The notes below the pieces were generated by a model. It did no database searches, was not told where the DNA came from, and saw only the letters and a program-made list of their open reading frames with translations. A DNA stretch of 64,000 bases, from positions 62,001 through 126,000 of the forward strand of contig JBPGPT010000021.1 of the NCBI GenBank assembly GCA_051047955.1, written 5' to 3'. The position numbers and the translations under genes are program-made. Below are positions 11,401 to 61,243 of this stretch, in pieces. The number at the start of each line of letters is the position of its first letter. Position 1 is the first letter of the stretch. The stretch comes from Cystobasidiomycetes sp. EMM_F5 (taxonomy: Eukaryota).

Positions 11401-14096
11401 CCCGCCAGTCCACAAAAGGGTGAGTAGCATTGAGTGAATTTGGTAACTACTCCGAGCGGAAGCGCTTCTTCTGGCGACTGCGTGCGCCTGTACGCATTGC
11501 TGTTGAAATCGTATTCATTGAGACCAGCGAAAGCTGCACGGTCCTCGCCAGTGAAGCAAAAGAGCTGAGATGCAGAGTCAAGCAGCCGGACATCGGCCCA
11601 CTCTACTTCGTGGAATAACAATTGCTCATAGAGGCTACGCGCGACGTGCAGACTGACGCGGCGGTCCTCTGCAAATGGCCATGGTAAATAATCGAGAAGG
11701 CACGTCTGCATTTGCACAGTAAGCATTGATAGCTGTCAGGGAAATGACATCAGCACCTACGACTACATCTTCGCCTGTGAAGCTGCTGGGATAGGCTGAA
11801 ACAATTAAATTCAGCTATACATCTTCTCGTTGCTGGCTATTCTTGGTGCATGACGCTACTTACAGATCAATGATTGAGTATGCTCAGTCCGCGGAAGCCG
11901 GTCTTGCAGAGAACTTGCTAGATTACTCAATAGAGCAGGATTAAGATACGACTGGTCCGTATTTCGGTCACGCTCGCGTTGTGGTCCACGATTCCTCATG
12001 CGACTGGCTCTTGAGCCAAAGTAATCATCTGTGGACAATGAACTGCTGGAAGGTGCTAAAGATTTTTGGCGGGATGGTTGTTGCGTACCGCTTGCTATCC
12101 TCGCAGAGGTCGACGACGACTCGGCGAGAGAAGGAGATATTGAAATGGTGGGCGAAGACGGCAAGTGCGGCAGTTGCGGTAGGTCATCATTAGTAGCGCG
12201 GCGACTGGTTGTCCGCTTCGGCAATCGTGTCAATACCTCCGCGTAGCCGTGCGACCCTGTATCGATGCGGTTAACATGTGCTCCGGAAGCTGATGTCGAT
12301 CTCGAATCGCCGTTTGCGTCCTGACGAGAGGCAAAAGATCGCTGTGACGGCTGCCTGGCGCGCTCCCCAACGTAGCTTTGCATCGAGTGAGAAGCCACAG
12401 GTTCCGAGATCGAATGCGCGATGGGTGGAGGAGCGATGGGTCGTGGCAAGCGAGCTATTTCCGAAGGGCCAGCAGTACCCGCAATCGTCTGGTAGCGATG
12501 TGTGTTCCTCGTCTGTGACAGGGACCGCTCGGTGCCAGTCGTCTGAACAGGATGCTTGCTCGGGGGATCCGGTACGGCATTAGCTGAGCTACTCAACGAC
12601 CCCGGTGAGGAGTGCGGATCTCCAGCTGCATAGAACGCTTGCGCGAAAGCAGAACGACCATTGTCAACAAGCCTAGATGTGGAAGGCAGAGATGCTGACG
12701 CCGATCTACTATGTTCTTGAGCTCCACGTAAAGCCGGGGCTGATAGCAATGCCTCCTCTTCTTGCGGTACCGGTAATACCCTCCTAGAGCTTTTCCGGGA
12801 TGGCGAATACGACCGCCCGCTCATGCTTGAAGCTGTAGACGAGCGTGTTACCGATGAAGTGCTGGCGCTGTTCGAGAATTGACCAAGCGGCATGCTGCCC
12901 TGGCTTGTGTTACTTTCAACGGACGGTCTTGATGTCGTAGAACGACTGGAAGTTGTGAGAGATGGAGTTGAGTAATTCGAGAAATTCGACATATTGGGCG
13001 ACGCTGGGTTCATGTTGCTGTCATATACAGGTTTTGAAGTTGAGGCTGAAGATGAAGCAGCGGAATTTGTCCGTGGATGTGGTTTTCGTATAGATGGCTG
13101 CCTTGGGCCATTTGGAGTGCCAAAGCCTGAACCATGGGCAATTCGGTACGTTGACTGTATTGGTACCGGAGGCTGCGGAAGATCGTTGCTTGTGCCGTAC
13201 GACCGGCTATCGAATTGGCTGTTTTGGACAGGCGACGTCGGAATGTACGGGACAAACGGCGGCGCGGCTGGCATTGTAAGAGGTCCAGGCGGCAAGGTCG
13301 TAGGTGGAGTATTGTTACCCTCGTACATTGAGATGATACCGCCGGGAGAATATCTAGCAGGCCGTTCGTTATCAGAGTGATCTGAATAAGCATTGTAGTC
13401 GGTCGAAGCTTGGTCGGAAGGTCGTCTGCGTGATCCACTATTACCTCCGAGCGGAGCAGCATGCTTGATGTGAATATCGTTCATTTGCTCCATAAGATCG
13501 TTTAGTTGGAAGCCGGAGCTATTCACTGCCAGCGGCGGCAATGCAACCTGCATTGGCTGATACGCGCCGCTGTGAGATGCAAGTCCTGCATATCTCGACG
13601 GATCCAGATAGCCTCCGTTCGCATCTGACGGCGAACCGATAGCTTGACCATGCTGCGAGTCCTGCGAACGCGGCGACAAGCCAGCGTCGTAGTTTGAGAT
13701 TGATTGCGTCTCCCCCATCGTTGCCTTTGGGTGAGGCGGTAAACCCCATCCTATACGTCCGTACGACTGCACGGCAGCACTGTCTGTGCTGTATTGGCTC
13801 TTTGCGTAATCGTATCGAGAATCAGGCTGATGACCGCTGCCGTACTGTGCAAAATGGTCATTCTGCTCGGGCTGCGGATACCGTCCAGCAGTATCGTAGC
13901 CTGACTGGCTATAGTATCCTGGATATCCGGCGTGCTGATGCTGCTGCATATTATTGTTGGACGTGTTTGCATGACCATTGTAATCCGACGGTCCGGAAAT
14001 ATGGGCAGCATCGTGAGGGCCTCCGTAGCCATTCGCGCTGCCAGCAGGCTGTCGGTACTGCGCGCCATACCCGTAGCGAGTATCATGGCCGTTCAT
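8402..14096 (-). CDS. Rho1 guanine-nucleotide exchange factor, Rom1/Rom2/Tus1 type (disordered N-term, DEP, DH, PH, CNH)
   Basis: CYSPFC...CYSPFCP motif after the DEP region; DH domain (RLQRYPLLL); PH domain (EYQVMLFDH); CNH domain (IIEWEGRPDAIVFCHPYVLAFDNRFIEIR). Stop TGA at 8402. Confidence 0.9.
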
Positions 14097-32138: not shown

Positions 32139-33810
32139 TCAGATAGCCTTGTAGTCAAGCTTGGCTAGATTGAGATACCACACACGCTCAGCATTTGCAC
32201 ACGCAACATATTATGCGCAACGACTTACACTCGTGTTTCTTGGCTTCTTGTAATTTTCTCACTGCTTTGTTGAGATCGTCTTGGACAATGTAATCTCGCT
32301 CTTCTCTAATGGCAAACATGCCCGCTTCCGTCGCTACATTCCGCAAGTCTGGACATTGCGAGCCTCGTTAGCTTTATATGCTCGGGCTATGATCAAGACG
32401 AAATACTGACCTGCTCCATTGAAACCTTCCGAAAGCTTGACAATAGCTTCATAGTCAATCTCTCCTGATTTCCTGATTGGCCCGCAGTGTATCTTTAAGA
32501 TTTCCATCCGTGACACCTCATTCGGCAGCGGAATCTCAATCTTCCTATCGATTCTCCCCGGCCGCATAAGTGCTGGGTCGAGCGTGTCTGGACGATTCGT
32601 TGCCATGATTATCTTTGTCTTGCCGAGGTAGTCGAAACCGTCCATCTGATTGAGCAGCTCCATCAATGTCCGCTGGATTTCGCGATCTGCCGAAGTGCCT
32701 TCGCTGAACCGCCGCCCTCCGATAGCGTCAATCTCGTCCATGAAGATGATACATGGTTCGTGTTCTTTGGCGTATCCGAACATCTCCCGCACTAATCTTG
32801 CAGACTCTCCAATGTATTTGTCAACGATGGCCGATGAAACGACTGTAGGGTAAGGCCATCTTCAGCAAGGCGGCATGCAGCCGTCAAGGGTACACTCACC
32901 CTTCAGAAAGTTTGTGCCCATGGTACTAGCAACAGCTTTGGCTAAGAGCGTCTTGCCGGTACCTGGTGGACCGTATAGGAGTACACCCTTGGGGGGCTTG
33001 ATTCCCACCCGCAGAAAGAGTTCGGGGTTTTGAAGAGGTAATTCGATGACTTCTCGCAATTCTCGTATTTGCTCGCTCAACCCGCCGATTCCAGCAAAGC
33101 TGACGTTGCCTGGGTCTTCTATTGACATATTGTATACCAGCGGATCGACCTCTCTCGGCAGAACTCTACGGCATTGACATGTCGTTGAGTATAGAATCAA
33201 CATACATTGGGCCTCACCTACCTCATAATCGTCAACGTCGTCATATCGAGAGCTACTCGAGTGCCTGGTTTCAGCTTGTCGCGATTGACAGATGACCTGC
33301 ACCCGACTACATAGCGGGGTCCAGAAGATGCCTTGACAATGACTGTGATGATTGTGAGGGTCGGCGATGTGGTCTAGCGCTGCATGCAAGAAATGCAGCC
33401 TTACACCTCTCTTCGTCCAATTGCCGCGTCACCTCTCCTACAATCTGGCCAACACTCTGCAGCGCCTTGATGTCGTTTTCTGACTTTTCATAGTCTGCCT
33501 CGAAGTTGCGTATGTTGAGCCGGACTACAAGATTGTATTTGTCGCATTCGTGGAGTCGGTGCATCATCGTGCATTACAAACAAGGTCCGGTGGAATCGCG
33601 AAAAAGAACATTAGCCGTGCATCTCGTTCTGACGACGTTGCTACGCACTTCGTTTCAAGTCGTCGCCCAGCGCTTCATGTTCGTTTACTCTCTGTTTCCA
33701 TATCGATATCCACCGCGTCAGCGCCCTGACAGTACCAGGTTTGAGCAGCCGCAGCCTACCCGCTTGTACGTTGCCAGAGCTTCCGCCTTTCGCGTATCTG
33801 TATCAGCCAT
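32139..33810 (-). CDS. RPT4: 26S proteasome AAA-ATPase subunit Rpt4
   Basis: [31 protein letters not shown], Walker [63 protein letters not shown]-terminal KLDYKAI*. Confidence 0.97.
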
Positions 33811-34425
33811 ATTGCCGTGGTTGTGAAGGGCAATTGCTGGTTTGCAAGTCCGTAAATGGATCTTGATCAACTTCTCAGACGCCGCAACGGTGCAAGCCTT
33901 GACCTATGACCAAACAACACAAATCTGAAGAACTTGCGATTTATGATGAAGACACGGTCATAATTCGACGAGCAGGCTTCCCTCTGCGGCATAAGCTAAC
34001 GACCGGTTGTGAAAGCTATCCAGACCGGCCGTTAACGTGATCCGCAAACTCCGCCTTACTGGTACACAGGACAAGGCTCGCGTCGCGAACCAGATATCTA
34101 CAGTCTACGTAAACTATTTCCCCTGATGTTCGTCCGAATCCCGGATATCGCGCAAAGTCGTTGAGTCCAAAGGCTATGAACATCCCGCTCGGCCAGTTCA
34201 GTGTTTGATTATTAACGGAGGTACCCGCAATACACCCACTAGCACTGAGTAGCGTCGTGGCTTGTCAAGACTAAGAAGCTGACGGTAAGAGCATTCGGCT
34301 GATGTTTCCGCGCGATATAAGGCGAGCAGACGATATACGCAAACATCCGACAAGCGAGCCTTCACCTTTGCAATTAGCTGACCAGCATTGCTTGCGGTTT
34401 CCATGGATCATAACAGCGCATGATG

Positions 34426-34449
34426 TACGCGCTCTACGCGCTCTACGCG
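34426..34449. repeat. 9-bp tandem repeat (TACGCGCTC) x2.7
   Basis: tacgcgctc tacgcgctc tacgcg is read directly, in the divergent intergenic region between RPT4 and paralogue A. Confidence 0.7.
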
Positions 34450-35550
34450 GTGTTGCTTGCAGAACGGTTGGCCACTTCTCCGAAATCAGTCTATCAGAGC
34501 AACCGCAGAGGTGATCCCGGAGATGGCCCAAGGTCATACGGTAGGATGGAGCACGCGTAAAGCGTATGCAATCAAGGACGGGCGAAGGGAACCTTTCAGC
34601 TTCGCTCTCCTCTCTTGTCTCGGTCTGCATATCCTGCTGGACAGTATTATGCCTGAAAGTGAGTGTCGATGTAGTCGAAGTCAGGCTGCAGCTGACGTGC
34701 AGGATAAGATTGAATGCAGGGATAGGCTCCTCCTCAAGTTCCTCGCGGCGATGTCAGCTCGACCGAATCACTTCGTCAGCGAATCCTGCTCATTCCATAT
34801 TCACAAGCAACGCTGGGCGGGTTCATCGCAGCGACTCATCTTCCCGTCGGTATCCATGTCATCAAAGCTTTGTCAAAGCGCACCGTCACTACAAATTGTC
34901 CCCAAAACCGGGCGTAAAGACCAGAAACACGCTGGCTGTTTGTGCCAACTTTTGGTGGCGAAATGCGCTATCCATGTCGAACGCCTTTACAATGCACGGC
35001 TCACTCGGGAATGCGGAGAACGACCCTCTGAGATTCGCGCTCACAGCACCCTAAACCTGTAGAACAGCTGATCTCGGCGTGCTGACAGCGTCAGTCCGGA
35101 CCCTCCGTGTCCGTTAACAGGTGCGGGTACGATCGAGGTCTTCCAATCTCGCTGGAGGGCCCTTAGTGCTGGGCAGGAATTCTGCACGAATAAAAGCGGG
35201 CAAAGAAGGACATCGAGCACGACGAAGCTTAAAGCTGGCTGCCTTGCTGGCTGGCTGGCTTACTTACGAACGCAGACCTGCACCTTGGAAGAGCCTCAAC
35301 GTCGCGGCGGTGCTTTTTCGTAGACTGACTCGACTACCGACGGAGCTCGAAACGACCCTTGGCTCTGCTTCAAAAGAAACGCATCTCGACTGGGTCGCTT
35401 TTGGTAGTGAGTCCTTGATACACACACCCAAACGCGAAAACACAGTTGGAGGCGTCCGAGACGAGAGACTATTGCTCTCGCTTCCTGGCCGTGCATTCGT
35501 CCGTACCTGCCTCGCGCGTGCACCCAACGAAAAAAAGGCCTTAAATCTGA

Positions 35551-37494
35551 ATGTCAACATCAAGTTCGCCTTTTCTGACTACTGTACCTCCACCTCCAGT
35601 GCACTCTGTGTACTCGACACCGTCTGCTGCTGCATCTCAGCTCAGTCGTGCTCCTTCAAATAAGCAGCATTCGTCAGAGTGCCCGTACTTTACGTCTGCT
35701 CCCACCGAAGACGCGTCCCAAATGGACAACATGGCTCACTACGGCGGCATGCACAACCATAGTCACGACATGGATCATTCATCTGCTTCTGCTGAACACG
35801 TCCATTACAATCATGCAGGTCGCCCTCACGGCGCGTCTGCCCCTCCTTCGCTCGATGGAAACGCTCAAGAATCGGCCTCTGGCTTCCAGGCTGGCACCGT
35901 CAAGACTAGCAATAATGACATGGTCTACCTCCTCACGGGTGATGGTCAGTCTAATGCTACCGTGCCGTCGTCCTGGGTCACCGTACCTTGGTCTCAAATC
36001 CTGAAGGAACTTCAAGGCAACGAACACTTGTGCCTCGCGCTCGGCCGAGCAGTTAGCACACAACAAGGGATTCGAAACAAGCTGCTCAGGGTACTTTCTG
36101 ATGGCAGTAACACATCAAGCTCTGCCAACTCGAGCCTCGACTTCAGCGACTTCTCTCTCGCTTCTGCTCTTGACAACAGTACTGCACCCGGTAGCGAGCT
36201 CTTTGCTGGTGGCAACCAGTCTGACAACATTTGGGACTCGCCTCTCGCGACCAATACACAGCATGAACAAGTCCAGGTAAGCTGCTATATGCAGTCGCTG
36301 CTCCGCCCCGACCGTCATTCGTGTCTGACATTTTTTTGGCAGAACACCCCGCTCACCTCGTCTGCAGACGAGTCTCCAATGTCGGCCGCAAAGCCTAGCT
36401 TCTGGGCAACGACAGCATCTGTTCAACCAATGAACCTTAATGTTGCCAATCTTGCCAATCTCCCTGCTATGCCGACGCCCGCTGGCAGTGTCTTATCTCC
36501 GACTGCTATTCCCATGCTCGGCAGCTCTTTCGCCAAAGAGATCATTGCAAGCAGCGACACCATCGACCAAATGATCCTTCGTGAGCGCGAATACAATCAG
36601 GAACGCAAAGAGTACATCTGGTCTCAGCTCGATCTCATGCTATACGAGATTGACGACCCGCTTGCGCAAAATGCAATCCGGGAGGAAGGCAGTATCAAGA
36701 TGACTTTCCCAATTGGCACGATGCTGCTCTGCAAGGAGAAGGATGGCGCTATCGCCAGTCCCGCCTACACCGCAGGTAACCCTCATTCGAATGAATGGCT
36801 CAAGTGCCAGGTATGCCACCACAAATGCTCTTATCGTGCCGACACCTCCTCGCTCAAGAGACCAAAGGTAAACCTTCGTTCTTGCGTCATTGCCTCTGTA
36901 GAAGCTTATCGTTCCTTCAAACAGACCATCCGCGAACACTTCCAAAAATGCCTCTGGCTCGGCGATAATCACCCACTCAAAGTACTTTCTGCCCTTCAGC
37001 TTCGTGTTCTTGAGCGCGAGTCACAAGGCCTTCTTCCAAACCGTCGCCGTGCCCGCGGCATTCGCCCTGGCCACCATCCATCTGTCGGTGGTATCCAGCC
37101 GAGCGCTTCGCCAGCTGTCAAGTACTCCCCTTATCCCGCTGCCCGTCCACCTCCTGTCTATTCCGGAAATGTAGGCGTTCAAATAGCACCGGTCGCCCGT
37201 AGCATAACTCCTGCTTCAATGATGGGCTCCTCCATGATGGGCCGACCGGAAGGTCATCCTTTCTTCGGTATGGCACCGCTGCCCTCGATGCCAAGCATGC
37301 TTGCTCCGATGCAGATGGAGCCTGCTCAATATACAGGCAATCCGTATAGCGTTCCAATCACCCGCAATACTGTCAGTCACCTGCATATGCAAAATATGCC
37401 AAACACAAATGGCCGTCACTACAATAACGCAGGCGACTCTCCGCTCACCAATAGTATCAGCGGAGGCGAGTCGCCAGAAGCTCGAATGAGATGA
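35551..37494 (+). CDS. Unrecognised family, paralogue A (putative Cys/His zinc-binding regulator)
   Basis: 647-codon ORF with two in-frame introns (36277-36342, 36868-36924). Shares the VTVPW module, LSPTA and the ~150-aa Cys/His domain with paralogues B and C. Confidence 0.85.
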   Translation: MSTSSSPFLTTVPPPPVHSVYSTPSAAASQLSRAPSNKQHSSECPYFTSAPTEDASQMDNMAHYGGMHNHSHDMDHSSASAEHVHYNHAGRPHGASAPPSLDGNAQESASGFQAGTVKTSNNDMVYLLTGDGQSNATVPSSWVTVPWSQILKELQGNEHLCLALGRAVSTQQGIRNKLLRVLSDGSNTSSSANSSLDFSDFSLASALDNSTAPGSELFAGGNQSDNIWDSPLATNTQHEQVQVSCYMQSLLRPDRHSCLTFFWQNTPLTSSADESPMSAAKPSFWATTASVQPMNLNVANLANLPAMPTPAGSVLSPTAIPMLGSSFAKEIIASSDTIDQMILREREYNQERKEYIWSQLDLMLYEIDDPLAQNAIREEGSIKMTFPIGTMLLCKEKDGAIASPAYTAGNPHSNEWLKCQVCHHKCSYRADTSSLKRPKVNLRSCVIASVEAYRSFKQTIREHFQKCLWLGDNHPLKVLSALQLRVLERESQGLLPNRRRARGIRPGHHPSVGGIQPSASPAVKYSPYPAARPPPVYSGNVGVQIAPVARSITPASMMGSSMMGRPEGHPFFGMAPLPSMPSMLAPMQMEPAQYTGNPYSVPITRNTVSHLHMQNMPNTNGRHYNNAGDSPLTNSISGGESPEARMR

Positions 37495-38699
37495 TGTGAC
37501 ATCGTCCAACGCCTGGGACTTCCCTGCTTGTTTCTTTCTAAATCTTTTTGTTTTTTTTTTTCGGTTTCTGGTTCCGCCTGTCTTACTTCGTGCTGCAGCA
37601 CTACGATATTCATCTTCAGCCACCCTTAAAAATAGCAACGCGATCAAATACTACCAGCGCGTCTCTTGCACGTCATAACGTCTGAGTCCCCTCTCCACGC
37701 TTGTCATGTACGCCTCGTCACGCAATTATCAAACGACAAAATCCTCACCAACGAAATCTCCCACGATTTGTTCTACTCGCGGCGTCCTCCTTTACTTGTT
37801 ACCTCGTAAACGCTACAAGCAACATACCTCCAAAAAGCGTATTATAGCTACCCCTCCTCCCGCGCTCCCCCTCACAATACCACGATCCCATCTCCATAGA
37901 TAAACTGTTTGGCCGAGTGTAGTGTAGATGCTTACTGTACATGAAGTCTTTCGACTTGTGTCTTACGGTTCCTACTTGCGTTGCGTTGATCGCATAAAAG
38001 CGTTCAATTGTCATGATGGGTTGCTTCTTGCCTGGACACCGAAAGACTTTGCTTCTTCACCATGACTCGTCAGCATGTTTACACGCAACTGCTCCTGCTC
38101 GTACTCATCAGGACAGCAGTAAATCTGCCATCAACTTCCGCAACCGTCGCCGTCGTTGCTTCTGCGCTGGTCTCGCTTGACCCGGCAGCAGGCTCGTCCA
38201 AAGATAGCTCATACCTACTCTTCTTACGACGTGAATGCTGACAATGTGAACGCGCTCGCGATCCGGACTGCACTTTTGGCTCTGCGGTTGAGTCTTCTCG
38301 GCGACTCCAACAGCTCTGTGTAACATGGATGGCGCTGCAGGGTGAAACTACTGAAGTACTTACCATAAAGAGCAAGTCTCACAGGCTTACTCTGTAGTAC
38401 TGCTGATCTCTCTGACTCGCTCGACGTGTCAAACCTCGACTGACGAGCTGCCACCGCAGCGACAGATTCGCGCTCTACAGCTGCCTCGCACAACATGCAA
38501 GATCGGGGTAGGACTACTTTAGCGCTTCGCTCGCTCAACTCAACAAAGAATTCTCTTGCACGCCTTATCAGAATCCCCCAGACAAGCGAGCGGGCAGGCT
38601 TCCTGATAAAAGGCGGCCTGACTCGTCTGCTTCTTGTCTTCCTTTCCAACGCACAGTACCGTAAAGAGTGCCGCTTATATTACTGACATATAGCAAAAG

Positions 38700-40487
38700 A
38701 TGCAGCAGCTCATCAGCGACAACATCAACAGCAACAGCTTCCAGGCAGTCGTGCCTAGCCCTCCTGTTCGTACCATCTCCCATCACACTCTCGTCAATTC
38801 CCCAAACGCAAGTCTGCTATCCACACCAGCTTCGATGACTGGCTCTCTAGCCGTCGTTTCTCCAGATGCAATGCGAAGCGGAACGTCGTATGACGTTCGG
38901 AGCGATACCTCCTTCGGCGATGAAGTACAATCAGCAAATCAAACTCCTGCTCTGCCAAAGGGCAAGCTTATCGATGCCGTGTCCACGCAAGTCAACTTCA
39001 CCTTCCAACAGGGATCCGTTCAAGCGAGCAATGATAGCTCCATCTACGTGCTCTCAGAAGACGCTTCGATGCTAGTCACCGTCCCATGGCTCAGCATATT
39101 AACAGAGCTCTATCAGAACGAGAATCTCATCTCCGCCATGCTCACCAGCATGGAGAGCCAGCCAAATTTGCGCACAAAAGCGTTGCAGATCCTGAATCGC
39201 AATCAACCTGCGAACCCTCCTTTCCAGTCCATGCAGAATCCTCACTTTTCAGACTTTACCATCTCTTCGGCTATCCAATGCTCAGAGACTCCTGTGACTT
39301 ATCCACTCTTCCAATCTTCTTCGACGGTCGACTTGAGTAACAACGCTATGCCAGGCACAGCTGGTATCACCGGTTGGGACGCCGTATGTCAACAGGTACG
39401 CCCAGCTAATTCAGGTGAGGTACCGCATCATGCTGAGCCAGTGTTTCTGTCTCAGAAGACAACGTCTAGCCCGTCATCACAAGCTGCCACCTCTGGCTCT
39501 GCAAGAACTGCAGCGCTGCAGTCACCGGGAGGCAATCTGTCTCCTACCGCGCGGCCTCCCACAGCCTTCGACTTGCCTCCCATGCCCTTCCCAGACTTCT
39601 CCGGCTCCATTCAAAACGCTCCAGACCAGAGCTCAGGAGCCAACATCATCGGCGTCAGCTATCCGTCCGTCGTCACCGCAGATTTGGATAGCATCGACCC
39701 TATGATCATGGCGGAAAGACCACACAACCCAACTCAGCGCGAGTACATCTGGTCACATGCATCGTACGAGCTGTACGAAGTAGACACACCCGAAGGTCTC
39801 ATTGCACAGCAAGAAAGTGGAACCATTCGAATGGTGTTTCCTCCAGGCACTATGCTTCTCGCCCATGATACCGATGGTGCCGAGGCTAGCCCCGCATGGA
39901 CGGCCCGCCGTGCCAACATGAAAGATTCCAACGAATGGCTCAAAGCTCAGGTCTGCCACCATCTGTGCTTGCAGTACAAGGCAGGCACCCGGCGACTAAA
40001 CAGGCCAAGAACCATTCGGGATCACTTCCAGAAGGTACGCTTCGCGACATTCGAATACTACACGCAATCTGACTTGATTCATTGTATATAGTGTGTATGG
40101 TTGCCACCCAATCATCCATTGAAGGTGCTTTCGACACTCCAGCTCAAGGTACTTGATCTCCGACAGAATGGACTAATTCCCACAAAGAGCCGAACAAGGA
40201 GCATTCACATGGGATATGCTCGTCCTATAGGTGGCCTGCAGACCGGAGGACTTGGCTCAAACCTGGCATCTCCATTCGCCAGTCCTTTCATCGAGAACTC
40301 CATCACCAGTGCATCGAATTATACAATGCAATTCAGAACAAACAACCAAAGCACCTTCCCAACCCTTGCAAGTCCTCTAGTCAATGTAGCGAGCGGCCCA
40401 TCAGGGCACACTCACATCCACAAGAAGCGAAAATCGGAACATAGCGATTCACCTCTGTCGAGCCCGTATTCAGATTCTTCGGAATAA
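38700..40487 (+). CDS. Unrecognised family, paralogue B
   Basis: Introns 39396-39455 and 40035-40091. The spliced product contains LVTVPW and ...SNEWLKAQVCHHLC...RPRTIRDHFQK/CVWLPPNHPLKVL. An acceptor just before the ATG (38693) suggests an upstream exon. Confidence 0.85.
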
Positions 40488-42068
40488 GGCGTGTTCATTA
40501 TACCTGTTTCAATATACATGATGTGGGAGGATCAGATCGTCGACCTATTGTACATGCTTGATTCGATTCCATAGCTTCTCTCCACCTTGCTGTCTCATGT
40601 TTGAATTGCCCTTTGTAGAGATCCAAACTTGTTTTTGCATTGTAGCAATATGATACTGCGGCGTCCACTGCTGGAATTAGGTCGGCTCGCTTCGCTGTAG
40701 CGTTGCCAGTGGAAAAGTTTGGCCAGAGCGTCAGTACCGCTCCGCCAGCTCCGCCCTTGCCCGACTTTGGGTGTCCCGGGACGAGAGCAAAACGAGCATC
40801 AAGTGCGCGCGAATCCGAAGTACTCAATCTGCAACTCGTGCAAATACGGTCCTTGAACATGCCAGGCAGCTCATCTCACTGCATGCTGGAACTCTGGATA
40901 TCTACATTGACCCATCTGCGCGGGCTGCACCAGATTGCCAATCCAACAAAGCCCACCGGACTGATCATGACGCTCTGATATGGACTCTGTCATGGCTCAT
41001 TCATTATCTTTGAGGCGACCGGCCGCAGTATATACGAGGTGCTCGCGCCCGCTGGTTATACAGGACGCGACGTTGAGCGCGCTTGCCCGCCGGTCTGCCC
41101 GCTTCGGCGTTGTAGCAAAGCTTCACGGGGCGATGCGGTCGACACAACCCTACACCACAATGCATCACACTTTCCAACGCTCCCGTCTGACGGGTGTCTT
41201 AGAGTGACTAGCGTCGTCGGATCTCCATTCAATCCCAACGGCCAACGGCTGCTCCGAGAAGAACTCTCGAGCGGCTTTGTGCATCAGACGAGATAAGTGT
41301 TCTCTTTTGGCTCCGCGTAAAGGACTCAATTGGAGCACAAGGCTTTTCCGGTTGCGATCCACTCTGCGATTGAATGCTAACCCCGCATACTGACGTCGAA
41401 CGGAGCTTTTGTCCAAATGAACAGTCGTTATGCTCACAAAGACCCCACAGAATAGTAACTAAGGCGGTTGAAATGGATGAATGACAAGCTCGTGGCCGAG
41501 CGTGGTGGCTTTGAACAGCGGCGAAGCGAGGTGAACTGACAAGCAATTCTGACCGGGCTGCAGAGGCTAGCGTGGTAGACTTTTTCTCAGCTATCGAAAG
41601 GACACCTCTGCGACTCTTTCTACCACTCTCACCTGAGAACCCTCGTCTTGGCTGCCAAAGATCCTTTCGCCGCGGTTTGTCGACCTTCTCATCCTAGCTT
41701 TAGTGACCGCCACAAAAGCCCCACTCTTTGGCCGGTCACAACATTTGTATCAGCAAAATCACAGAATTGGCGCAGGTTGACCAGGGTTTCAGTGAGTCCG
41801 TCTTGTGACCTGTGTCACAATCGCGCTTAATGATGGTCCGTTAAGACTTTGCCTTTTGGCACCTCCAGACACCAAGGCTTGCAGATCAACCACTCTAACG
41901 GAACCTGTGAGTAGGCTGCATACAAGCGGACTGACGCACTCCTGCGTCTCGAGCGAAAGCTGACCGTTCCGTTTGCCCTACTTCTGCTCGGCAGGCCACC
42001 GAATTTCCTTTTCATCGCGCAGCTGTGCATCCCGGAGCGATCAGGAGAGCTGACCCCGCAAGCACATC

Positions 42069-45000
42069 ATGGGTTCAAATACTCAGGCCCCGCCCCCTCA
42101 TCGCCGCAATGTAAGTCCACTCTGGGTTTCCAGCTTTGTGCGCAGTTTGGGTCTGCTTGCTACGCAAACTACCCTAAAACAGCAGAGTCTGGCAATTTGA
42201 CAATCTCCGCTGACACAGGCAACGTTTCTATTACCCACATACATACCCGCCCTCTGATCCTCGTCATAATCATATCCCTCCGTACTTATCACTACAGCCT
42301 CGACATAACCCACAACAGCGTCCGGCAATAGTCATGTCTTCCAGAGCTCAGGCCAGCGGCGGGATAGACAGTGGAGTGTCATCACCAGAGACCGGTCCGA
42401 CATCCTTGACTGGCTCTCCGGCTCTATACCATGGCATACAGCGAGGATTTGGCTCTGCTGCTAGCACTACTCCTAGTAGCATCACCAGCGCTTCGACATG
42501 CTCTCAGCAACCATTCAACAGCATTCATAGTACTCATGGCCATTCTCGTACAACGTCCATATCATCCGTTGCCTCTACTTCCAATCCCATTGACTCAGCA
42601 TTCTACAGTGGTACTCCAGCTCAAAGTAACGAGCAGACCCTTTACATTCGCGTCCCATCCGCTGGCAATGAAGGCAATGCTGAAGGCCATGTTGTGCCAC
42701 TCGACGAATCTAACAAAAACCGCAATACAGAGGACTTTTGGGTAACCGTTCCCTGGCAAGCTATCGGCCATAAAATGCTCGAGCAGCCCACCCTTCTCTT
42801 GGACCTGCTCGAAAGCGTCAAGGCAACTCCAGTCATGAAGAACCGTATCTTGCGAATGCTAGCTGCCAGTTCCAACGAAGTATGCCCAGATAGCGGGTAT
42901 ATCGGGGCGCATGAGCAGGGCGACTTCAATTTACCATCCTCGCCCAACCCTATGCGAGCATCCAACATGTCACTGTTCCCTCCAATGCCAATGCCTGACG
43001 TATCAGCGTCGACCTGGAGCACGCCGGGATATCCAAACCCGAGCGAGTATCACTCCAGTGCGCCAGTAAGGGTAAAATGCACTTTGCTGTGAAGACAAGG
43101 GCTGACAATCCCGCGACCAGGCTACACCTGCACATGGCCTTGTTGGCTCAGATCAGTCATCTGCTGGCTCTCCAGGCCATACAGGAGGTCACGCCGGTGC
43201 ATGGCCTGCATTCCCTGGAGCAACGTTTGATGCCATGTCCATCTCTGTACCAAACGCAGCAAACTCAGCCCTAGGTGATATGAGCGCTCTTCTGAACGGG
43301 CAACTGTCGCCGACTGCGGCCATGTTCAACCAATTCCCTTCAGCAATTGCGGCCGCACCTGATACAATCGACCGCGGCATCTTGACGCAAGTCGAGAGCA
43401 ATACAATGGTGGAGGAGTACGTATGGTGTCCTGCTGATGCTTCTCTCTATGAGATGAGCAACCCTCGGGCCGCTCAAGCCTTGTTGGCGCCCGGCTCGAT
43501 CAGAATGACATTCCCGCCCCATACTATGATACTGGCGTGGGAGAAGGACGGCACTGCAGCAAGTCCCGCATTCAAGCCTCTGCATCCGCATTCCAATCAA
43601 TGGTTGAAGGCTCAAGTCTGTGATCACCGATGCGCATACAGAGCCGGTACAAACTCGCTGAAGCGGCCAATTACTATACGTGACCACTTCCGAAAGGTCA
43701 GTGTGACTCTCGACGGTCGCCCTGAGCTTGATCGCTGAGAGCTTGTCACATAGTGTGTCTACCTGGAAGAGAACCATCCACTCAAGGTATTGTGCTCGCT
43801 GGAACTCGCCGCTCACGAAAGAGCATCGCAGGGCTTGCTGCCAACGCGTCGTAGAACACGCGGCGGCCGTCTTGGAGCCATGAAGAGCGTGAGTACATAT
43901 GATCCATACCCATGATCTATCCCCACCTTCCTTCGTTACAAAAGTAGTAGCATTTGTGCATCCCCCTTTCTCGCCGACCTCATTCCTCTTTCGCCGTTCC
44001 CTCGATTGGTAGGATTGTTATTCTATACGAGCGTTGTGCTGAAATACAATCCTTCCCTGTCCATTCTCTTTGCGTGTGGTCCACTGTCTCCCTCCGCAGG
44101 ACTTTACGAGCTCAGCATCGTCCATGCACAATTTGCCACTGAGCAAGGTCCGTGCGCATCAAGTTGGACGAAGCTCCGTATCTTCACATGGTGGATTGAC
44201 GTCAAGTGCTGGTACTGGAGGAGAATCGGCAGACTCCGACTCGGATTACGTTCCACCTCGTTCAACTTCTGCTGCGACTAGCATGCTGTCTCTATCGGGA
44301 CTGTACGCAAACTCAAATCAGGCCGCGACTGTACCGGTCGCTCCTACCACATCTGCTGGCGGCGACGCACAGATGGAAGGTAGTACATCGAGCAATACAT
44401 TCGCCAATGACAAAGCACCTCGCTCCCTGAGGGGCATTACAAAGGTTGCTGATGCTACCGTTACACTGCCAAAGCAAGACAACAGCATTCTTCCAGGGCA
44501 TGCAAGGCGACATACAATGGCAGACACGAGGTCTTTATTTTCGAATGTGCTGCATGACTACTCAGGCCATCATGACGGCCACGACATGGTGAGCGGAGTC
44601 GTCAAAACCTGAGAGTATGAGACTCTCCTTTTACTGAGCAGATATTATATCAGGACACATTTGACAACACTCCTATCTCGCTGGCAGGTCTTCCTCTCAC
44701 TCTGGGCTCATCGGGCGCAGTATTCGGCACGTCAAGCGATACATTCAGTCAGCAGATAAGCGGTCCATTCACTGGCCATCCTGGCATTTTTGGCAGTACG
44801 GTAGGCGACACTTCTCATTTCAATAGCATCCCTTCATCCACTTTCCATCCCTTTTCCGCATCGAGAACCGTATCCCCGAACGACTTTTCTAGTCAGCCAG
44901 ATTTTGGCATGCATTCACCGGTGAATGACCTGCCGCCCCTGAGTTTGGGAGTGTTGGCAAAGTTTCATACTCCGACAATGGATCCACGCGAGATGACTCA

Positions 45001-45352
45001 AGGCCATCAAGCTGGATATGCATTCCGAGACTACTTTTCGGACTCTGCTTCGTCCGACTGCTCTGCATCGTCTTCTGCTGCTCCTTCTCAAGCTCCATCA
45101 CCTGCCACATCTCCGATCCGTATGTATGCCTCATCTCGCGAGGATGATATTCCTGTCCAGGATATGCGGGATATGACTGTCGCCAAGAATACACGTGCTC
45201 CCGGCAGCCCTGCTTACTTGATCTCTCCTACACTCCGTGCTCCCGCTCTTCCCCTCTCATTCTTACAGCAACACGACAGTGCCTACAATTCCTCTGCTAG
45301 CTTCGACACCGACGACGATGACGACCTCAAGGCTGGCTTCAATCTAAATTAG
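42069..45352 (+). CDS. Unrecognised family, paralogue C (long Ser-rich C-terminal extension)
   Basis: Inferred introns 42111-42297, 43066-43120, 43697-43753, 43889-44099 and one starting at 44589. Contains WVTVPW and ...SNQWLKAQVCDHRC...RPITIRDHFRK/CVYLEENHPLKVL. The 5' exon and tail splicing are less certain. Confidence 0.8.
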
Positions 45353-45801
45353 CCAAAAGAACGGATGCCATCTTTTGGCAGATTCCGTTACACCATAAGA
45401 AGGACGGAACACGTCCTGGCTAGACATACGGCCAAGTCGCTCTGCGCTCTCCTCAGCTTCAAGCACCAAAATTGGCACCAATGCTTCATACATCAGCGTT
45501 CTTTCATGTTTTATTATTCTCAGCTTGTAGCTCCCGTCGCTGTAGCTTTTCACTTCTTAGCTACAACTCCAGTCATCTTTGTTGAATCCGAAGCTGTGTC
45601 AGATTGAATACGAGAGTAGATATCGTTCAAGTTCCCCCTCGAGGTCTTTCCGAGAGAACAACTGCGAGCACTTTGACCGTAGTCTTACATTCTCAGCTCT
45701 TATTGCACATTTGTCGCCTGTGCTGATATCGTCCACTTTGTCCAAGTCGGACCTCTCCAAGGTCAACGGCAGTCCGACACTGCGCAAGTAACCAACAAAT
45801 C

Positions 45802-48800
45802 ATGGCGGACAGGCAAGTTGACGATGCTGCATTCACAGCAGACATGCCAGTATACATAGCAGCATGCTGACGCTGGACACGAAATATCGCATCCGTCACA
45901 CTTTCCTGCGCGTCGTCGTCTGAATGGGAACCCCCCAAAATCCGTATGCTTGGGATCAACAATGCAGACCTATCCAGTTCACGGAGCATCTCCAGGTGCG
46001 TGCAGCTCGTAGCGTCTTGGAAGAGGCCTGGCTGACATTATCATGGCTGCGTCCTTGGTGGGCAACCCCCAGCTCTCGGCAGTGGGCATCCAGCCTGCTG
46101 CCATCAGCTTCAACACGCTCACTATGGAGTCGGATCGCTTCATCTGTGTCCGGGAAGAGGTGCGCTCCCGTCGACCAATCGAATGGACTGCGATATTCTG
46201 ACGCCGTTGCCTTGCGCTTTCGAACATGGTGAATTGCAATGACAGGGCGGTCCCAAGAAGGAGGTCGTTATCGTAGACCTCGCTGATGCAAACAATATCG
46301 TACGGAGGCCCATAAGCGCAGAGTCTGCCATAATGCACCCGGCCAAGAAGATTATCGCCCTGCGAGGTGAGCGGTCACGGCATAGCTTGGTATGGTTTTA
46401 AGACGCGCTGACACCCTGCCATCTGCGTCATGCGAATCAGCTCAGCGACAATTGCAAGTCTTCGACATGTAGGTAGTCTAAGCACTCAATCTGGGCCGAC
46501 TGCTGATGATGGACCCGGCAACAGCGATGCGAAAGCCAAGGTCAAATCACATTTAATGCACGAGGTGGGTTGCTGCATACGTAGAGATGCTGGCATATGG
46601 CCTAATTTTGCCCCCCTCGCATGCAGGACGTATCATTCTGGAAATGGATATCGGAAAGCACGCTGGGGATTGTCACGGAGAGTGCAGTCTACCACTGGTC
46701 AGCGACTGGCGATGCGGCACCGGTCAAAGCATTCGACCGACATGCAAATCTTGCTGGACACCAAATCATCAATTACCGCGCATCATCTGATGAAAAGTGG
46801 CTAGTACTAGTCGGCATTGCGACAAATCCAGCGCCAGATGGCTTCAAGGTCAAGGGGTCGCTGCAATTGTACTCTAAGGAACGCTCAGTGTCGCAGCCGA
46901 TTGAAGGGCACGCAGCCGCATTCGCAAATGTCAAACTGGAAGGCTCGAACATCGAAACCAAGCTGTTCACCTTTGCAAATCGTACCGCGACTGGCGCCAA
47001 ATTGCACATTGTCGAAATTGATCATCAGGCAAATGCTCCTGTATATACCAAGAAGGCTGTCGATGTCTTTTTCCCAGCAGAAGCGACAAACGACTTTCCG
47101 GTTGCCATGCAGGTGTCGAAAAGGTGGGTATCGAAAAGTACAGAGGGCTGCTGTATCTCAAGCGCTGACGAGGGCACTGCCTCACAGGTACGGTGTCATC
47201 TACCTCGTGACAAAATACGGCTTCATTCATCTGTACGACATTGAGACTGGCGCAAACATCTACATGAATCGTATCTCTGGCGAAACTATATTCGTGACTT
47301 GCGAACACGAAGCCACCAGCGGTATCATCGGCGTCAACAGGAAAGGTCAGGTTCTCTCCGTCTCCGTCGACGACGAGACGATTATTCCATACATCCTTAA
47401 CACGCTCAACAATACCGACTTGGCCATCAAGCTCGCTTCTCGAGGCAATCTGCCTGGTGCAGACGGGCTCTACCAACAGCAATTCTCCCAGCTCTTCCAA
47501 GCAGGGCAATATTCTGATGCCGCCAAGGTCGCTGCGACGTCCCCCAGAGGCATACTACGTACTCCTCAAACAATCGATATGTTCAAGCAAGTACCCGTAC
47601 AGCCCGGTCAGATGAGTCCGATTCTACAATACTTTGGCATTCTGCTCGAGCGGGGAAAGCTCAACCGGTACGAATCAATCGAATTGTCGAAGCCTGTGCT
47701 CACTCAAGGCCGGAAGCAACTGCTCGAGAAATGGCTGAAGGAGGACAAGGTAGATCAGATGCGAGGCTCGCACTTGTGTTCCTGATATGCTAATCGTTTA
47801 CTCCACAGATCGATTGCTCTGAAGAGTTGGGTGATATCGTCCGGCAACACGATATGACTCTTGCTTTGTCCGTCTATCTTAGGGCTAGCGTACCCAACAA
47901 GGTCGTTGCGTGCTTTGCAGAGACCGGCCAATTCAGCAAGATTATCGTCTACTCCCAGCGAGTCAATTATACACCTGATTATCCTTCGCTGTTGCAACAC
48001 ATTACCCGTCTCAACCCAGAACAAGGCGCTGAATTTGCCAAGATGCTCGTGCAGAACGAGTCTGGTCCCCTCATAGATCTAGAGCGTGTCGTAGACATCT
48101 TCCAATCGCAAAACATGTATCAACAAGCAACCTCCTTCTTGCTGGAAGCGCTCAAGGACAACCAGCCTGAACAAGCTCATCTACAGACTCGTCTACTCGA
48201 GATGAATCTGGTCAATGCTCCACAAGTGGCCGATGCTATTCTCAGCAACCAGATGTTCTCGCATTACGATCGGCCGCGCATAGCCAACCTCTGCGAGAAA
48301 GCCGGCCTGCTGCAGCGGGCTCTCGAGCATTACGAAGATCTGAACGACATCAAGCGCGTTGTGGTCCATACCAATCTACTTCCAACAGACGTAAGTTACG
48401 TTGTTTCATCACTCCTTATGGACAATCTGACATGGGTGACACGCAGTGGCTCGTTGACTACTTCGGAAAGCTGACTGTAGAGAACACCCTTGAATGTTTC
48501 CGCGAGATGCTTAAAATCAACATTCGCCAAAATCTGCAAGTGGTTGTGCAAGCAGCTACCAAATACTCAGAATTGATTGGACCGGTCCGCTTAATCGAGC
48601 TGTTCGAGTCTTTCAAGACTTTCGAAGGATTGTACTACTATCTAGGATCGATTGTAAACCTGAGCACAGACTCGGAAGTTCAGTTCAAGTACATTCAGGC
48701 CGCGACGCGGACAGGCCAGATCCGCGAAGTCGAACGCATTTGTCGCGAGTCGAATCACTACAACCCCGAAAAGGTCAAGAACTTCCTCAAAGAAGCCAAA

Positions 48801-58603: not shown

Positions 58604-61243
58604 ATGTCGTCTACGCTTGCTAGCCGGACGACAACACTCTCTCGCGCCGTCTCCTCCGTGTCTGCGGCTTTGAATGCTGCATCTGCGACACCGGCCAACT
58701 CCACCGCGTCCAGCAGCAGCATGGCATCCTTGACGAGCGCGACCTCGGCAGTGGCTAATTCGACGGGTTCACCTGTATCGGGGGAGATACAATCGCCCAT
58801 CGTGCTGGATACAAGAGTCACGGCAGCGTTCGGCATACTGGGAGCATTCCTCCTGTGTTCCGGACTTGCCCTTGCCTTTACGGGATCTGCTTATCGAAGG
58901 TCAGTTCAACAAGGCGGAGGAGTTTTGGAGTGGACTGAGATTTACTTGTATCACCTTCATACTGCTTCGACAGGCTGGCAATTTTCTTGACAACATGTTA
59001 CACTCTCGCGACTGTTGTACTAATAATGATTCTCCACTTTGGCGTCGAGAAGATGGTCAGCCCACCTTCTGATGGGGCTATGGTCGGATTTGTGTTTGCG
59101 GGCTTTGGAGCTGGAACAGCATTTGGGATGGGTGCGGTGGTATTTCATCGAGGAGCCAAGGTCATCCTACCAGCACTCGCAGGCTTTAGTTAGTAGCGTT
59201 TGATGCCATTTGCTTTTGCAAAGCTGACAGGTTAATGGTGCCGTAGTGCTTGGTCTGACGATCCAGTCACTCAAGAACGATGGGCTGATACAGTCCGTCG
59301 GCTTTCGGTGCGTCATCAAGATTCATTATGCGTACACTGTCTGCGTTTGACATATTCCAACCTTGCAGATACTTCTTGTACCTTGGCACTACCGCAATAG
59401 CTTTTGTACTGGGCATCATACCACGATTCCACGACATTGCATTCTTGATTAGCTCCGCTTTCCTGGGAGCCCTGGCTATCGTTCTTGGCATTGTAAGGGA
59501 GCAGCGACAAAGAGGCCTCGATCTTATACTGACCAGGTAATATAGGACTGCTTCACTACTCAGGACCTGAAGGAGTTCTTCGTCTTCAACCTCGGGTTCA
59601 AAGCCATTTTCGACCAGCTTGACGGACACTTTCCTGTCAATTCTGGTATGCAAATCGAATTGGGAGTGTTACTGCTTCTCAGCATCATCGCAACTGCTGC
59701 TCAAATCCGACTGTTCAATATTTTCGAGACGAAACTCAAGTCTGTTTTTGGGAAGCGCGAGAAAGCGAACGGTCAAGACGATGTACACCGTCAAGACGAG
59801 AAGGCTGCTCATCGCATATCAACAATCATGACCAACGATGTTGGGAAGTTTGAGCACAGATACTCTCGAAGTGGTCTTCCGTTCGCTATGCCTTCGCAAA
59901 AATACGAACACCAAAGAGATGCATCGTTGTCGAGCATGGCCAGCAGTCCAGTCTTCCACTCTGCTACTCAGACGCCAAAATCCGCAACCATGCCTCTTCT
60001 CCTGCCGGAGTTGTCATATTCTGCGCGACCGAATGAGACTGCACTGATGCAGCAAGAAATTCTGGCTCCAGCTTTGTCGTCTATACCCAGCGAGCCGGAT
60101 AGCCCTGTAACGCCGATCGGACATCGAGCGTCTCATTCCCTACCAACCAGCAATGCACCTTCGGATAGCGAGCATACGAGTGTTGAAGCGCAGATCGCCA
60201 ATAAAGAGCGCGACTTGGAAGAAATTGCAAAGATTCGTCAAAGTATTGGTATGTTACGAGATGAGCTGCGCAGAGACTCTTCGGAATCAGCCAGAACGGA
60301 TCCTTTTGGGAAGAAGGAGTCAACCCATGCTAGAAGCGGATCTGCCTCAACGCTCATGGCAACACAGGAGGTAATAAAGTACGCTTCACCACGTCCAATG
60401 AGTCAGCGTGCCATTCTGGTCAGACATGGACGATCTCAAAGTCAATTGAGCATGGACGCGCTGGCAGAAGAAGGGCGTATTGCTGCGCGACCCGGCATGA
60501 CGGATTATCAGTACGTGTCATCGCCAAGCGTTCTGCAAGCGCAGCGAAAACTGGAAGGAGGAAATACACAGCAGAGTAGCATGTCGCATGCATACTCCGC
60601 CAGCAATCTGAACCGGCACAGCAGACAAATGTCACAGCCACGGTACTCGAATCTGGCTCGTCCTCTAGAGAATCCTGTTCGCCCTGCTCATGTCCGATCG
60701 CAATCTGCTACTACTCTTCTGGACAGAGTTTCGGCCCACAATAACGCTCAGCGCATAGTCACGGGCTTGCTTGATCAGCATCCGTCAACTTCTGCCGAAG
60801 TAGATAAGCCTGTACCGCGATCGATGACTATGGACATACGAGATTTGGATGCCAAACATCGGAAGCGACTGAGCGAGATTCAAAATCTAGGTCGTCCAAC
60901 TTCAGTAATGTTGAGCGCAGTGCCAGCTGCGACGGTGAAACATTCCCCGGATACAAGCAGGATCAGCATGGGACCAGAAGCGACAAATAGGGCTCCTCAT
61001 GAAAAGCGAAGAAGTACGTTGAACACAGGACCGACGCAAGGCATCGAGTATTCGAGTGCCACGCCAAGGTTCAGCAGCACGACAGCCCGAAGATTGTCAC
61101 AAGCGGATGAGCTTGGTCGGTTGCGACCAAGTCCGATTCTTGCGCATCAAGCCAGCAAGATGGAGGCTACCAATGCAATGCCGAATGTTGCATTTGTAGC
61201 TTCTTCCTCTCGCAAGACACCGCATAGTTGGTTGGACTACTGA
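58604..61243 (+). CDS. DUF4203 (TM7S3/TMEM198-like) multi-pass membrane protein with disordered cytosolic tail
   Basis: VLDTRVTAAFGILGAFLLCSGLALAFTG, several hydrophobic exons, ISSAFLGALAIVLGI/DCFTTQDLKEFFVFNLGF. The true start may lie upstream at about 58220-58490. Confidence 0.7.

What the first reader, a model, noticed from the sequence alone, without database searches (positions are those of the whole stretch)
36553..37059. Conserved domain with invariant C-x-H-x-C...H-x3-C...H and a basic tail
The aligned core reads A: WLKCQVCHHKC-SYRADTSSLKRPKTIREHFQKCLWLGDNHPLKVL, B: WLKAQVCHHLCLQYKAGTRRLNRPRTIRDHFQKCVWLPPNHPLKVL, C: WLKAQVCDHRC-AYRAGTNSLKRPITIRDHFRKCVYLEENHPLKVL. It is preceded by shared D.ID...EY.W...LYE...G.I.M.FP..TM.L....DG..ASPA and followed by GL.P...R.R. 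The H-F-x-K-C ending resembles C2HC fingers, and W-x2-C-x2-C...TSSLKR recalls BED fingers. However, the first Cys is Ala in two of three copies, so the ligand set is probably non-standard. Equivalent regions are about 39687-40202 and 43361-43867.
Basis: partly seen in the sequence, partly recalled or inferred. Interest (0 to 1): 0.75.

Follow-up and report, generated by a model that had tools for sequence, protein, structure and literature searches.

The report
Undescribed fungal zinc-finger protein family
Three neighbouring genes in a basidiomycete yeast encode a compact, probably zinc-binding domain that matched no catalogued family or solved structure and most likely belongs to a small, old group of gene regulators in these fungi.

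Summary
The three cores are real, but each is split by a 57-nt intron. They lie in three tandem fungal genes (A, B, C) and are 49-58% identical over about 150 residues. In homologues the His of 'C-x-H-x-C' is kept in 5 of 16 rows and the first Cys in 1 of 16. Four other residues never vary (16/16, 16/16, 14/14, 15/15) and give a plain C2HC set, C-x3-C-x17/18-H-x3-C.

The finger is the C-terminal half of a domain that AlphaFold2 folds confidently (pLDDT 90, pTM 0.84). Spliced members have no Pfam hit, and the model has no significant PDB or viral fold match. Each protein also has a second small N-terminal domain, long Ser/Pro-rich regions and a basic tail, the layout of a transcription factor. 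The three copies are old (one-clade test rejected, p=2e-5). All three named fungal members are Cystobasidiomycetes.

A 20-residue BED-finger resemblance exists, but the BED signature is not met. Verdict: an undescribed, probably lineage-restricted C2HC-finger family, most likely DNA-binding regulators. Zinc and DNA binding are inferred, not shown.

The parts
35722..37494 (+). Gene A, about 549 aa after splicing. The start is uncertain: the ORF is open from 35551 and the annotated P0001 starts later.
   Evidence: in-script model has no internal stop
35884..36105 (+). Gene A N-terminal small domain (strands, VTVPW motif, three helices by analogy with the model of B)
36277..36342 (+). Gene A intron 1, 66 nt, GT..AG
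   Evidence: removed in annotated P0001
36553..37062 (+). Gene A main domain: acidic beta-rich first half (about 86 aa), C2HC finger, long helix, basic tail
36805..36807 (+). Extra Cys found only in gene A (1 of 16 rows); not a family ligand
   Evidence: position is three codons before the first ligand Cys
36814..36828 (+). Gene A invariant Cys pair, C-x3-C (codons 36814-16 and 36826-28)
36868..36924 (+). Gene A intron 2, 57 nt, in frame and without a stop. It is retained in annotated P0001, which adds 19 residues to the finger loop.
   Evidence: the gap is seen against the intronless homologue L004
36937..36951 (+). Gene A invariant His-x3-Cys (codons 36937-39 and 36949-51)
37024..37062 (+). 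Gene A GLLP plus Arg-rich tail (possible nuclear signal or DNA contact; inferred)
38700..40487 (+). Gene B, 576 aa; the spliced model equals annotated P0039
38997..39203 (+). Gene B N-terminal small domain (predicted folded, pLDDT 77-87)
39687..40205 (+). Gene B main domain; ligand codons 39954, 39966, 40023, 40092 (C-x3-C-x18-H-x3-C)
40035..40091 (+). Gene B intron, 57 nt, just before the last ligand Cys
42334..45352 (+). Gene C, about 880 aa in my model. Introns 43066-43120, 43697-43753, 43889-44099 and 44589-44641; the first and the last two are inferred from splice signals and frame.
   Evidence: region 44388-44555 matches the C-terminal part of P0040
42589..42867 (+). Gene C N-terminal small domain
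43361..43867 (+). Gene C main domain; ligand codons 43619, 43631, 43685, 43754
43697..43753 (+). Gene C intron, 57 nt, same site as in B; absent from intronless L004, and 76 nt long at the same site in L005

Best explanation
A, B and C are old tandem paralogues of an undescribed fungal family of transcription-factor-like proteins. Each has a folded domain of about 150 residues. Its C-terminal half binds one zinc ion through C-x3-C-x17/18-H-x3-C. The zinc ties a basic loop (YRAG..SLKRP type) to a helix, which is followed by a second long helix and an Arg-rich tail. This basic half most likely contacts DNA, while the acidic beta-rich first half packs against it as a scaffold. The long Ser/Pro/Thr-rich regions would act as effector regions, and the small N-terminal domain as a partner-binding module. 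Shown: gene structure, family, invariant ligand pattern, purifying selection, confident predicted fold, charge split. Inferred: zinc binding (about 0.85), nuclear DNA binding and transcriptional control (about 0.55).
For: Four invariant Cys/Cys/His/Cys columns (16/16, 16/16, 14/14, 15/15). The same spacing occurs in 6 of 6 proteins with a continuous finger: x17 in five, x18 in B. The His lies in the predicted helix 112-121 and the last Cys directly after it, four residues on, so both can face one side. The finger-to-tail half has 13-14 K/R against 2-6 D/E, and the first half is acidic, in 5 of 5 proteins. Outside the main domain A, B and C are 14-17% Ser and 9-10% Pro, and B is predicted disordered except for two folded regions. 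pS 0.74-0.89 against pN 0.18-0.37 in 6 of 6 pairs. A+B+C as one clade is rejected, p-AU 2e-5, 20 rows. Weak BED-like signals point towards a DNA-binding finger: E 4e-4; top cluster BED, 0.87, zf-BED on 10% of its members.
Against: No experiment, and no atomic coordinates were available, so ligand distances were not measured. The Cys pair lies in coil after a helix rather than in the beta-hairpin of classical and BED fingers. No known DNA-binding fold was matched. Single fingers can serve for dimerisation instead of DNA binding (PMC12774644, passages). The rows counted for invariance were hand-picked (16, 14 and 15 of 38) and several are close relatives (P0004, P0036, P0038, L005).
Confidence: 0.55

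Rival explanations
1. The finger descends from a BED finger (hAT-transposase type) whose ligands slid along the chain: the first Cys was lost and replaced by a Cys four residues after the second, the first His became Pro, and a new H-x3-C took over six residues later. It then acquired flanking structure. This is an origin story compatible with DNA binding.
For: A gapless register of about 20 residues with the 7 complete BED repeats of P0030 (K-[C/A]-x-[IV]-C ... Y-R-x-x-T-x-x-L-K-[KR]). A family profile scores 5 of 7 repeats above all 500 shuffles. A BED profile scores A, C, P0040 and P0041 above all 300 shuffles. The Atlas top hit for spliced B is a BED cluster (0.87). Gene A alone fits Cx2C-x21-H-x3-C.
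Against: P0030 was picked from 1.8 billion proteins for likeness to A, so the shuffle tests are biased. hhalign probability is 4.7%. B scores 0.0 bits, reached by 14 of 300 shuffles. Pfam zf-BED does not hit. The W/F pair is absent. The model has a helix where BED has a strand. The Atlas score is under 0.9, a lead only. No transposase domain is found in or beside the genes.
Confidence: 0.2
2. The zinc module is a protein- or RNA-binding unit (chromatin cofactor, adaptor or dimeriser), not a sequence-specific DNA binder.
For: It is a single finger embedded in a larger domain. H-x3-C fingers such as UBZ, LYAR and U11-48K types bind ubiquitin, protein or RNA (recalled, not tested). Single C2H2 fingers with added structure can dimerise. 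No DNA-binding fold was matched.
Against: The strongly basic conserved loop and tail and the transcription-factor-like layout. The spacing differs from the x11 spacing of UBZ and LYAR (recalled), and the Asp that follows the His in UBZ (recalled) is not present.
Confidence: 0.3
3. The domain is an enzyme or a non-zinc structural unit, and the Cys/His residues are catalytic or bind another metal.
For: The first half holds many conserved polar residues (D.ID, EKDG, HSN[EQ]W), and the fold is unmatched.
Against: C-x3-C ... H-x3-C with a helical second pair is a typical structural zinc site (established knowledge). HPH is missing in B. No enzyme fold or family was hit.
Confidence: 0.08

Closest known systems
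BED finger (Pfam PF02892; Cx2CxnHx3-5[H/C] with N-terminal W and F, per PMC3606216 and PMC3365051, passages)
   Same: About 20 residues in register, including Y-R-x-x-T-x-x-L-K-R; helical second ligand pair; H-x3-C ending allowed.
   Different: C-x3-C instead of C-x2-C; BED's first His is Pro here; no W/F pair; no hairpin in the model; embedded in a 150-residue domain; no transposase.
C2HC (CCHC) zinc fingers in general (UBZ, LYAR, MYST types; recalled)
   Same: Cys, Cys, His, Cys ligand order with H-x3-C on a helix.
   Different: Spacer of 17-18 residues instead of about 11-12 (recalled). No Pfam model of these hits spliced members. The C-x3-C-x17-H spacing with His was not found in the paper search (3 papers held only 'cx3cx17'; two are on ferredoxins, one on venom peptides; listings only).
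Pfam zf-C3HC / NuBaID N-terminal domain (PF07967)
   Same: Weak hit on the unspliced gene A frame, E 7e-4, 20 bits.
   Different: Below the 22.2-bit cut-off. The match spans the retained intron, and no spliced member hits it.
Fungal transcription factors derived from transposase DNA-binding domains, such as Aft/Rcs1 of the WRKY-GCM1 superfamily (PMC1702500, passages)
   Same: Possible model for a lineage-limited, stand-alone zinc DNA-binding domain that duplicates and diverges.
   Different: No WRKY-GCM1 match by sequence or fold; the second ligand pair is helical here.

Membership tests
C2HC zinc finger (general class) | Four conserved ligands in the order Cys, Cys, His, Cys | tested here: met
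   16/16, 16/16, 14/14, 15/15 in the rows that cover each column; 6 of 6 continuous fingers
C2HC zinc finger (general class) | The four residues cluster in the fold | tested here: inconclusive
   Confident model, with His in a helix and the last Cys four residues on; coordinates not given, so distances were not measured
C2HC zinc finger (general class) | Binds zinc | not testable with these tools
   Needs ICP-MS or XAS
BED finger | Cx2C first ligand pair | tested here: not met
   The first Cys is present in 1 of 16 rows (gene A only); the family pair is C-x3-C
BED finger | Conserved N-terminal Trp and Phe | tested here: not met
   In the ungapped register the W position is Pro and the F position Arg/Thr in P0040 and P0041, with one aromatic between them. 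P0039 has a 3-residue insert here, and P0010's upstream part is probably intron.
BED finger | Hx3-5[H/C] on a helix | tested here: met
   H-x3-C at the end of predicted helix 112-121, but six residues later than BED's first His
BED finger | Beta-hairpin bearing the Cys pair plus an extra N-terminal strand | tested here: inconclusive
   The zinc-free model shows helix 88-93 and coil 94-111; no BED entry among the listed fold matches, which does not exclude it
BED finger | Pfam zf-BED score above cut-off | tested here: not met
   No hit for family members; positive control P0030 E 9e-83; the window loci are not among the 4 sub-cut-off G000 candidates
BED finger | DNA binding | not testable with these tools
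   Needs EMSA or SELEX
zf-C3HC / NuBaID (PF07967) | Score above the 22.2-bit gathering cut-off | tested here: not met
   20 bits, only on the intron-retaining frame; none on spliced members
hAT or other DNA transposon | Transposase catalytic domain and terminal inverted repeats | tested here: not met
   No transposase family in the 56 sequences scanned (window ORFs and pieces, plus P0041; not all 126 ORFs). The longest inverted pair in 30000-52000 is 30 nt at 73%. Flanks are an AAA-ATPase gene and clathrin heavy chain.

The most novel reading that the evidence does not exclude
This is a new eukaryotic DNA-binding fold and the founding member of an unrecognised transcription-factor family of Cystobasidiomycetes. 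It arose from a BED-type finger by sliding both ligand pairs along the chain, and it has split into several old subfamilies, three of which sit here as a tandem cluster.
Probability: 0.2. Interest if true: 0.68.

Novelty: new variant of a known kind. Interest (0 to 1): 0.45.

Why it matters
Fungal transcription-factor catalogues rest on known Pfam domains, so a family like this is invisible to them. A confidently folded 150-residue domain with no structural match and a clear zinc-ligand set is a ready target for structure and SELEX work. If it binds DNA, it adds a new DNA-binding domain to eukaryotes and gives a first class-specific regulator for Cystobasidiomycetes, which include leaf- and lichen-associated yeasts (recalled). 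If the BED link holds, it is a clean case of ligand migration in a zinc finger. On the other side, lineage-limited domains of unknown function are common in poorly annotated fungi, and no phenotype is attached.

Tried and rejected
Word-index protein searches found only proteins already known from this genome or one close hit: 1 of 187 candidates; 2 of 8000; 0 of 7775 longer proteins; weak evidence against fused forms.

The first Atlas search, with the intron-retaining frame, gave unnamed clusters only. No relative in viral contigs (0 of 75 pattern matches). No Rfam match in 33000-47000. No RNA holder was listed for the locus, which is no evidence on expression or splicing.

Homodimer prediction for the N-terminal domain of A gave no answer (score 0.00, alignment not used). 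Earlier-findings look-ups were empty. Paper searches (listings only) showed no description of this family; the library lacks most subscription journals.

Rejected: zf-C3HC (intron artefact), recent triplication (AU test), mobile element, and a non-standard ligand set. Organism labels were obtained for 15 of the 30 hits, plus P0001; the others were not looked up successfully, so the range is incompletely known. Synteny in other species could not be tested.

Full report
Setting. The window is fungal DNA with introns. Neighbouring frames encode clathrin heavy chain, a formin, a RhoGEF/CNH protein, an AAA ATPase, a nitrilase-family protein and 6-phosphofructo-2-kinase. It lies in G000:C124, an 18.3-Mb assembly. 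The frame holding the finding matches P0001 at 100%, which NCBI labels a hypothetical protein of a Cystobasidiomycetes yeast.

Observation. The three cores are present, each interrupted by a 57-nt GT..AG intron: A 36868-36924, B 40035-40091, C 43697-43753. The B junction agrees with the annotated protein P0039. L004, an intronless metagenome contig that encodes a C-like protein (P0040, 646 aa), runs through all three sites without the 19 codons. L005 has a 76-nt intron at the B/C site. The intron of A is in frame and has no stop, and the annotation P0001 keeps it; that stretches the finger spacer from 17 to 36 residues. The main domains are 49-58% identical among A, B and C, far above shuffles. 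G000 holds no further copy by three protein queries, and an in-window tblastn finds only these three genes.

Anatomy. In-script models give 549, 576 and about 880 residues without internal stops; the first and last two introns of C are inferred. AlphaFold2 on B finds two folded regions, about 100-170 and 313-475, in otherwise disordered chain. The N-terminal region carries a F-x-x-G ... Y ... VTVPW motif followed by helices and is seen in all 8 sequences aligned. The main domain folded alone (L004:1135-1620, 38-row alignment) has mean pLDDT 90.2 and pTM 0.84. It has short strands and two short helices in the first 85 residues, a helix at 88-93, a coil at 94-111, and helices at 112-121 and 130-146. 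The first half is acidic and the finger-to-tail half is basic (13-14 K/R against 2-6 D/E) in 5 of 5 proteins.

Ligands. A full HMMER search of 1.84 billion representatives gave 30 hits at E<=0.001. Most are exon-sized pieces called on eukaryotic contigs that run into introns. For each part of the finger I counted only rows that appear to cover it: 16, 14 and 15 of 38. Rows that read into presumed introns were dropped by eye, and several kept rows are close relatives. Four columns never vary: Cys 16/16, Cys 16/16, His 14/14, Cys 15/15. All 6 proteins with a continuous finger read C-x3-C-x17/18-H-x3-C. So the set is an ordinary CCHC order with unusual spacing. Zinc binding follows from established knowledge of such motifs and was not measured.

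Age and range. Synonymous sites are saturated (pS 0.74-0.89) while pN is 0.18-0.37 in all 6 pairs. In a 20-row tree of the first 87 columns (long-branch rows P0024 and P0028 and near-duplicate P0018 left out; one search includes them), B pairs with P0007 (100/99), A with P0002 (92/85) and C with P0021 (89/87). A+B+C as one clade is rejected, p-AU 2e-5. The duplications therefore predate the split from those other organisms, and further well-supported groups exist. Labels were obtained for 15 hits plus P0001. The only fungal names are Cystobasidiomycetes: P0001, P0039 (both this genome's proteins) and P0041, Cyphobasidiales. Restriction to this class is likely but not shown; P0024 and P0028 (32-34% identity) are unplaced. 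No viral relative was found.

The BED question. For it: the last hit is a beetle BED array (E 4e-4 summed over 7 stretches); the Atlas ranks a BED cluster first for spliced B (0.87, a lead only); about 20 residues align without gaps; and cross-profile scores beat shuffles for 5 of 7 repeats and 4 of 5 family members. Against it: that BED protein was pre-selected; hhalign gives 4.7%; and the published signature, Cx2CxnHx3-5[H/C] with N-terminal W and F (PMC3606216 and PMC3365051, passages), is not met by the family. The hairpin described for BED fingers (PMC1702500, passages) is not seen in the model. It may work like a BED finger, and may descend from one by a shift of both ligand pairs, but it is not a member.

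Mechanism. Most likely these are nuclear regulators. Zinc fixes a basic loop and helix that, with the following helix and Arg tail, contact DNA; the disordered regions recruit cofactors; the N-terminal domain binds partners (confidence 0.55). The main rival is a protein- or RNA-binding zinc module (0.3); single fingers with added structure can dimerise instead of binding DNA (PMC12774644, passages). An enzyme is unlikely (0.08). No supplementary files were consulted.

Verdict. The feature is real and is an undescribed family by the searches run (listings only). It is best filed as a new variant of the C2HC zinc-finger kind, inside a domain without a known structural match. Interest 0.45; 0.68 if it proves to be a new DNA-binding fold derived from BED.

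Noticed in passing
window 36868-36924, 40035-40091, 43697-43753: All three finger introns are exactly 57 nt, although A's sits eight codons upstream of the B/C site. Homologue fragments break at three recurring places in the finger (after HSN[EQ]W, after RPK, after HFxK), which suggests intron gain and loss inside it.
   Followed up: partly
window 36868-36924: The public model P0001 keeps this in-frame intron, probably an annotation error; regulated retention, which would lengthen the finger loop by 19 residues, is not excluded.
   Followed up: partly
window 35884-36105, 38997-39203, 42589-42867: A second undescribed conserved domain of about 70-90 aa (VTVPW motif plus helices), predicted folded in B, with no significant Pfam hit.
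   Followed up: partly
window 44100-45352: ORFs that look like a separate gene are probably the 3' exons of gene C; two short motifs (PRSLRGIT, RRHT.AD) are shared with P0040.
   Followed up: partly
window 36000-46000: Marked negative GC skew (-0.09 to -0.20 per 2 kb) over the cluster, probably from Ser/Pro-rich coding on the + strand.
   Followed up: no
window 11856-14096 (-) and 59648-61243 (+): Long ORFs (746 and 531 aa) without a Pfam hit; the first may be the N-terminal part of the adjacent RhoGEF gene.
   Followed up: no
L015 (G000:C2:488567-488644): A single C2H2-like finger that scores just under the zf-BED cut-off (18 bits), unrelated to this cluster.
   Followed up: no
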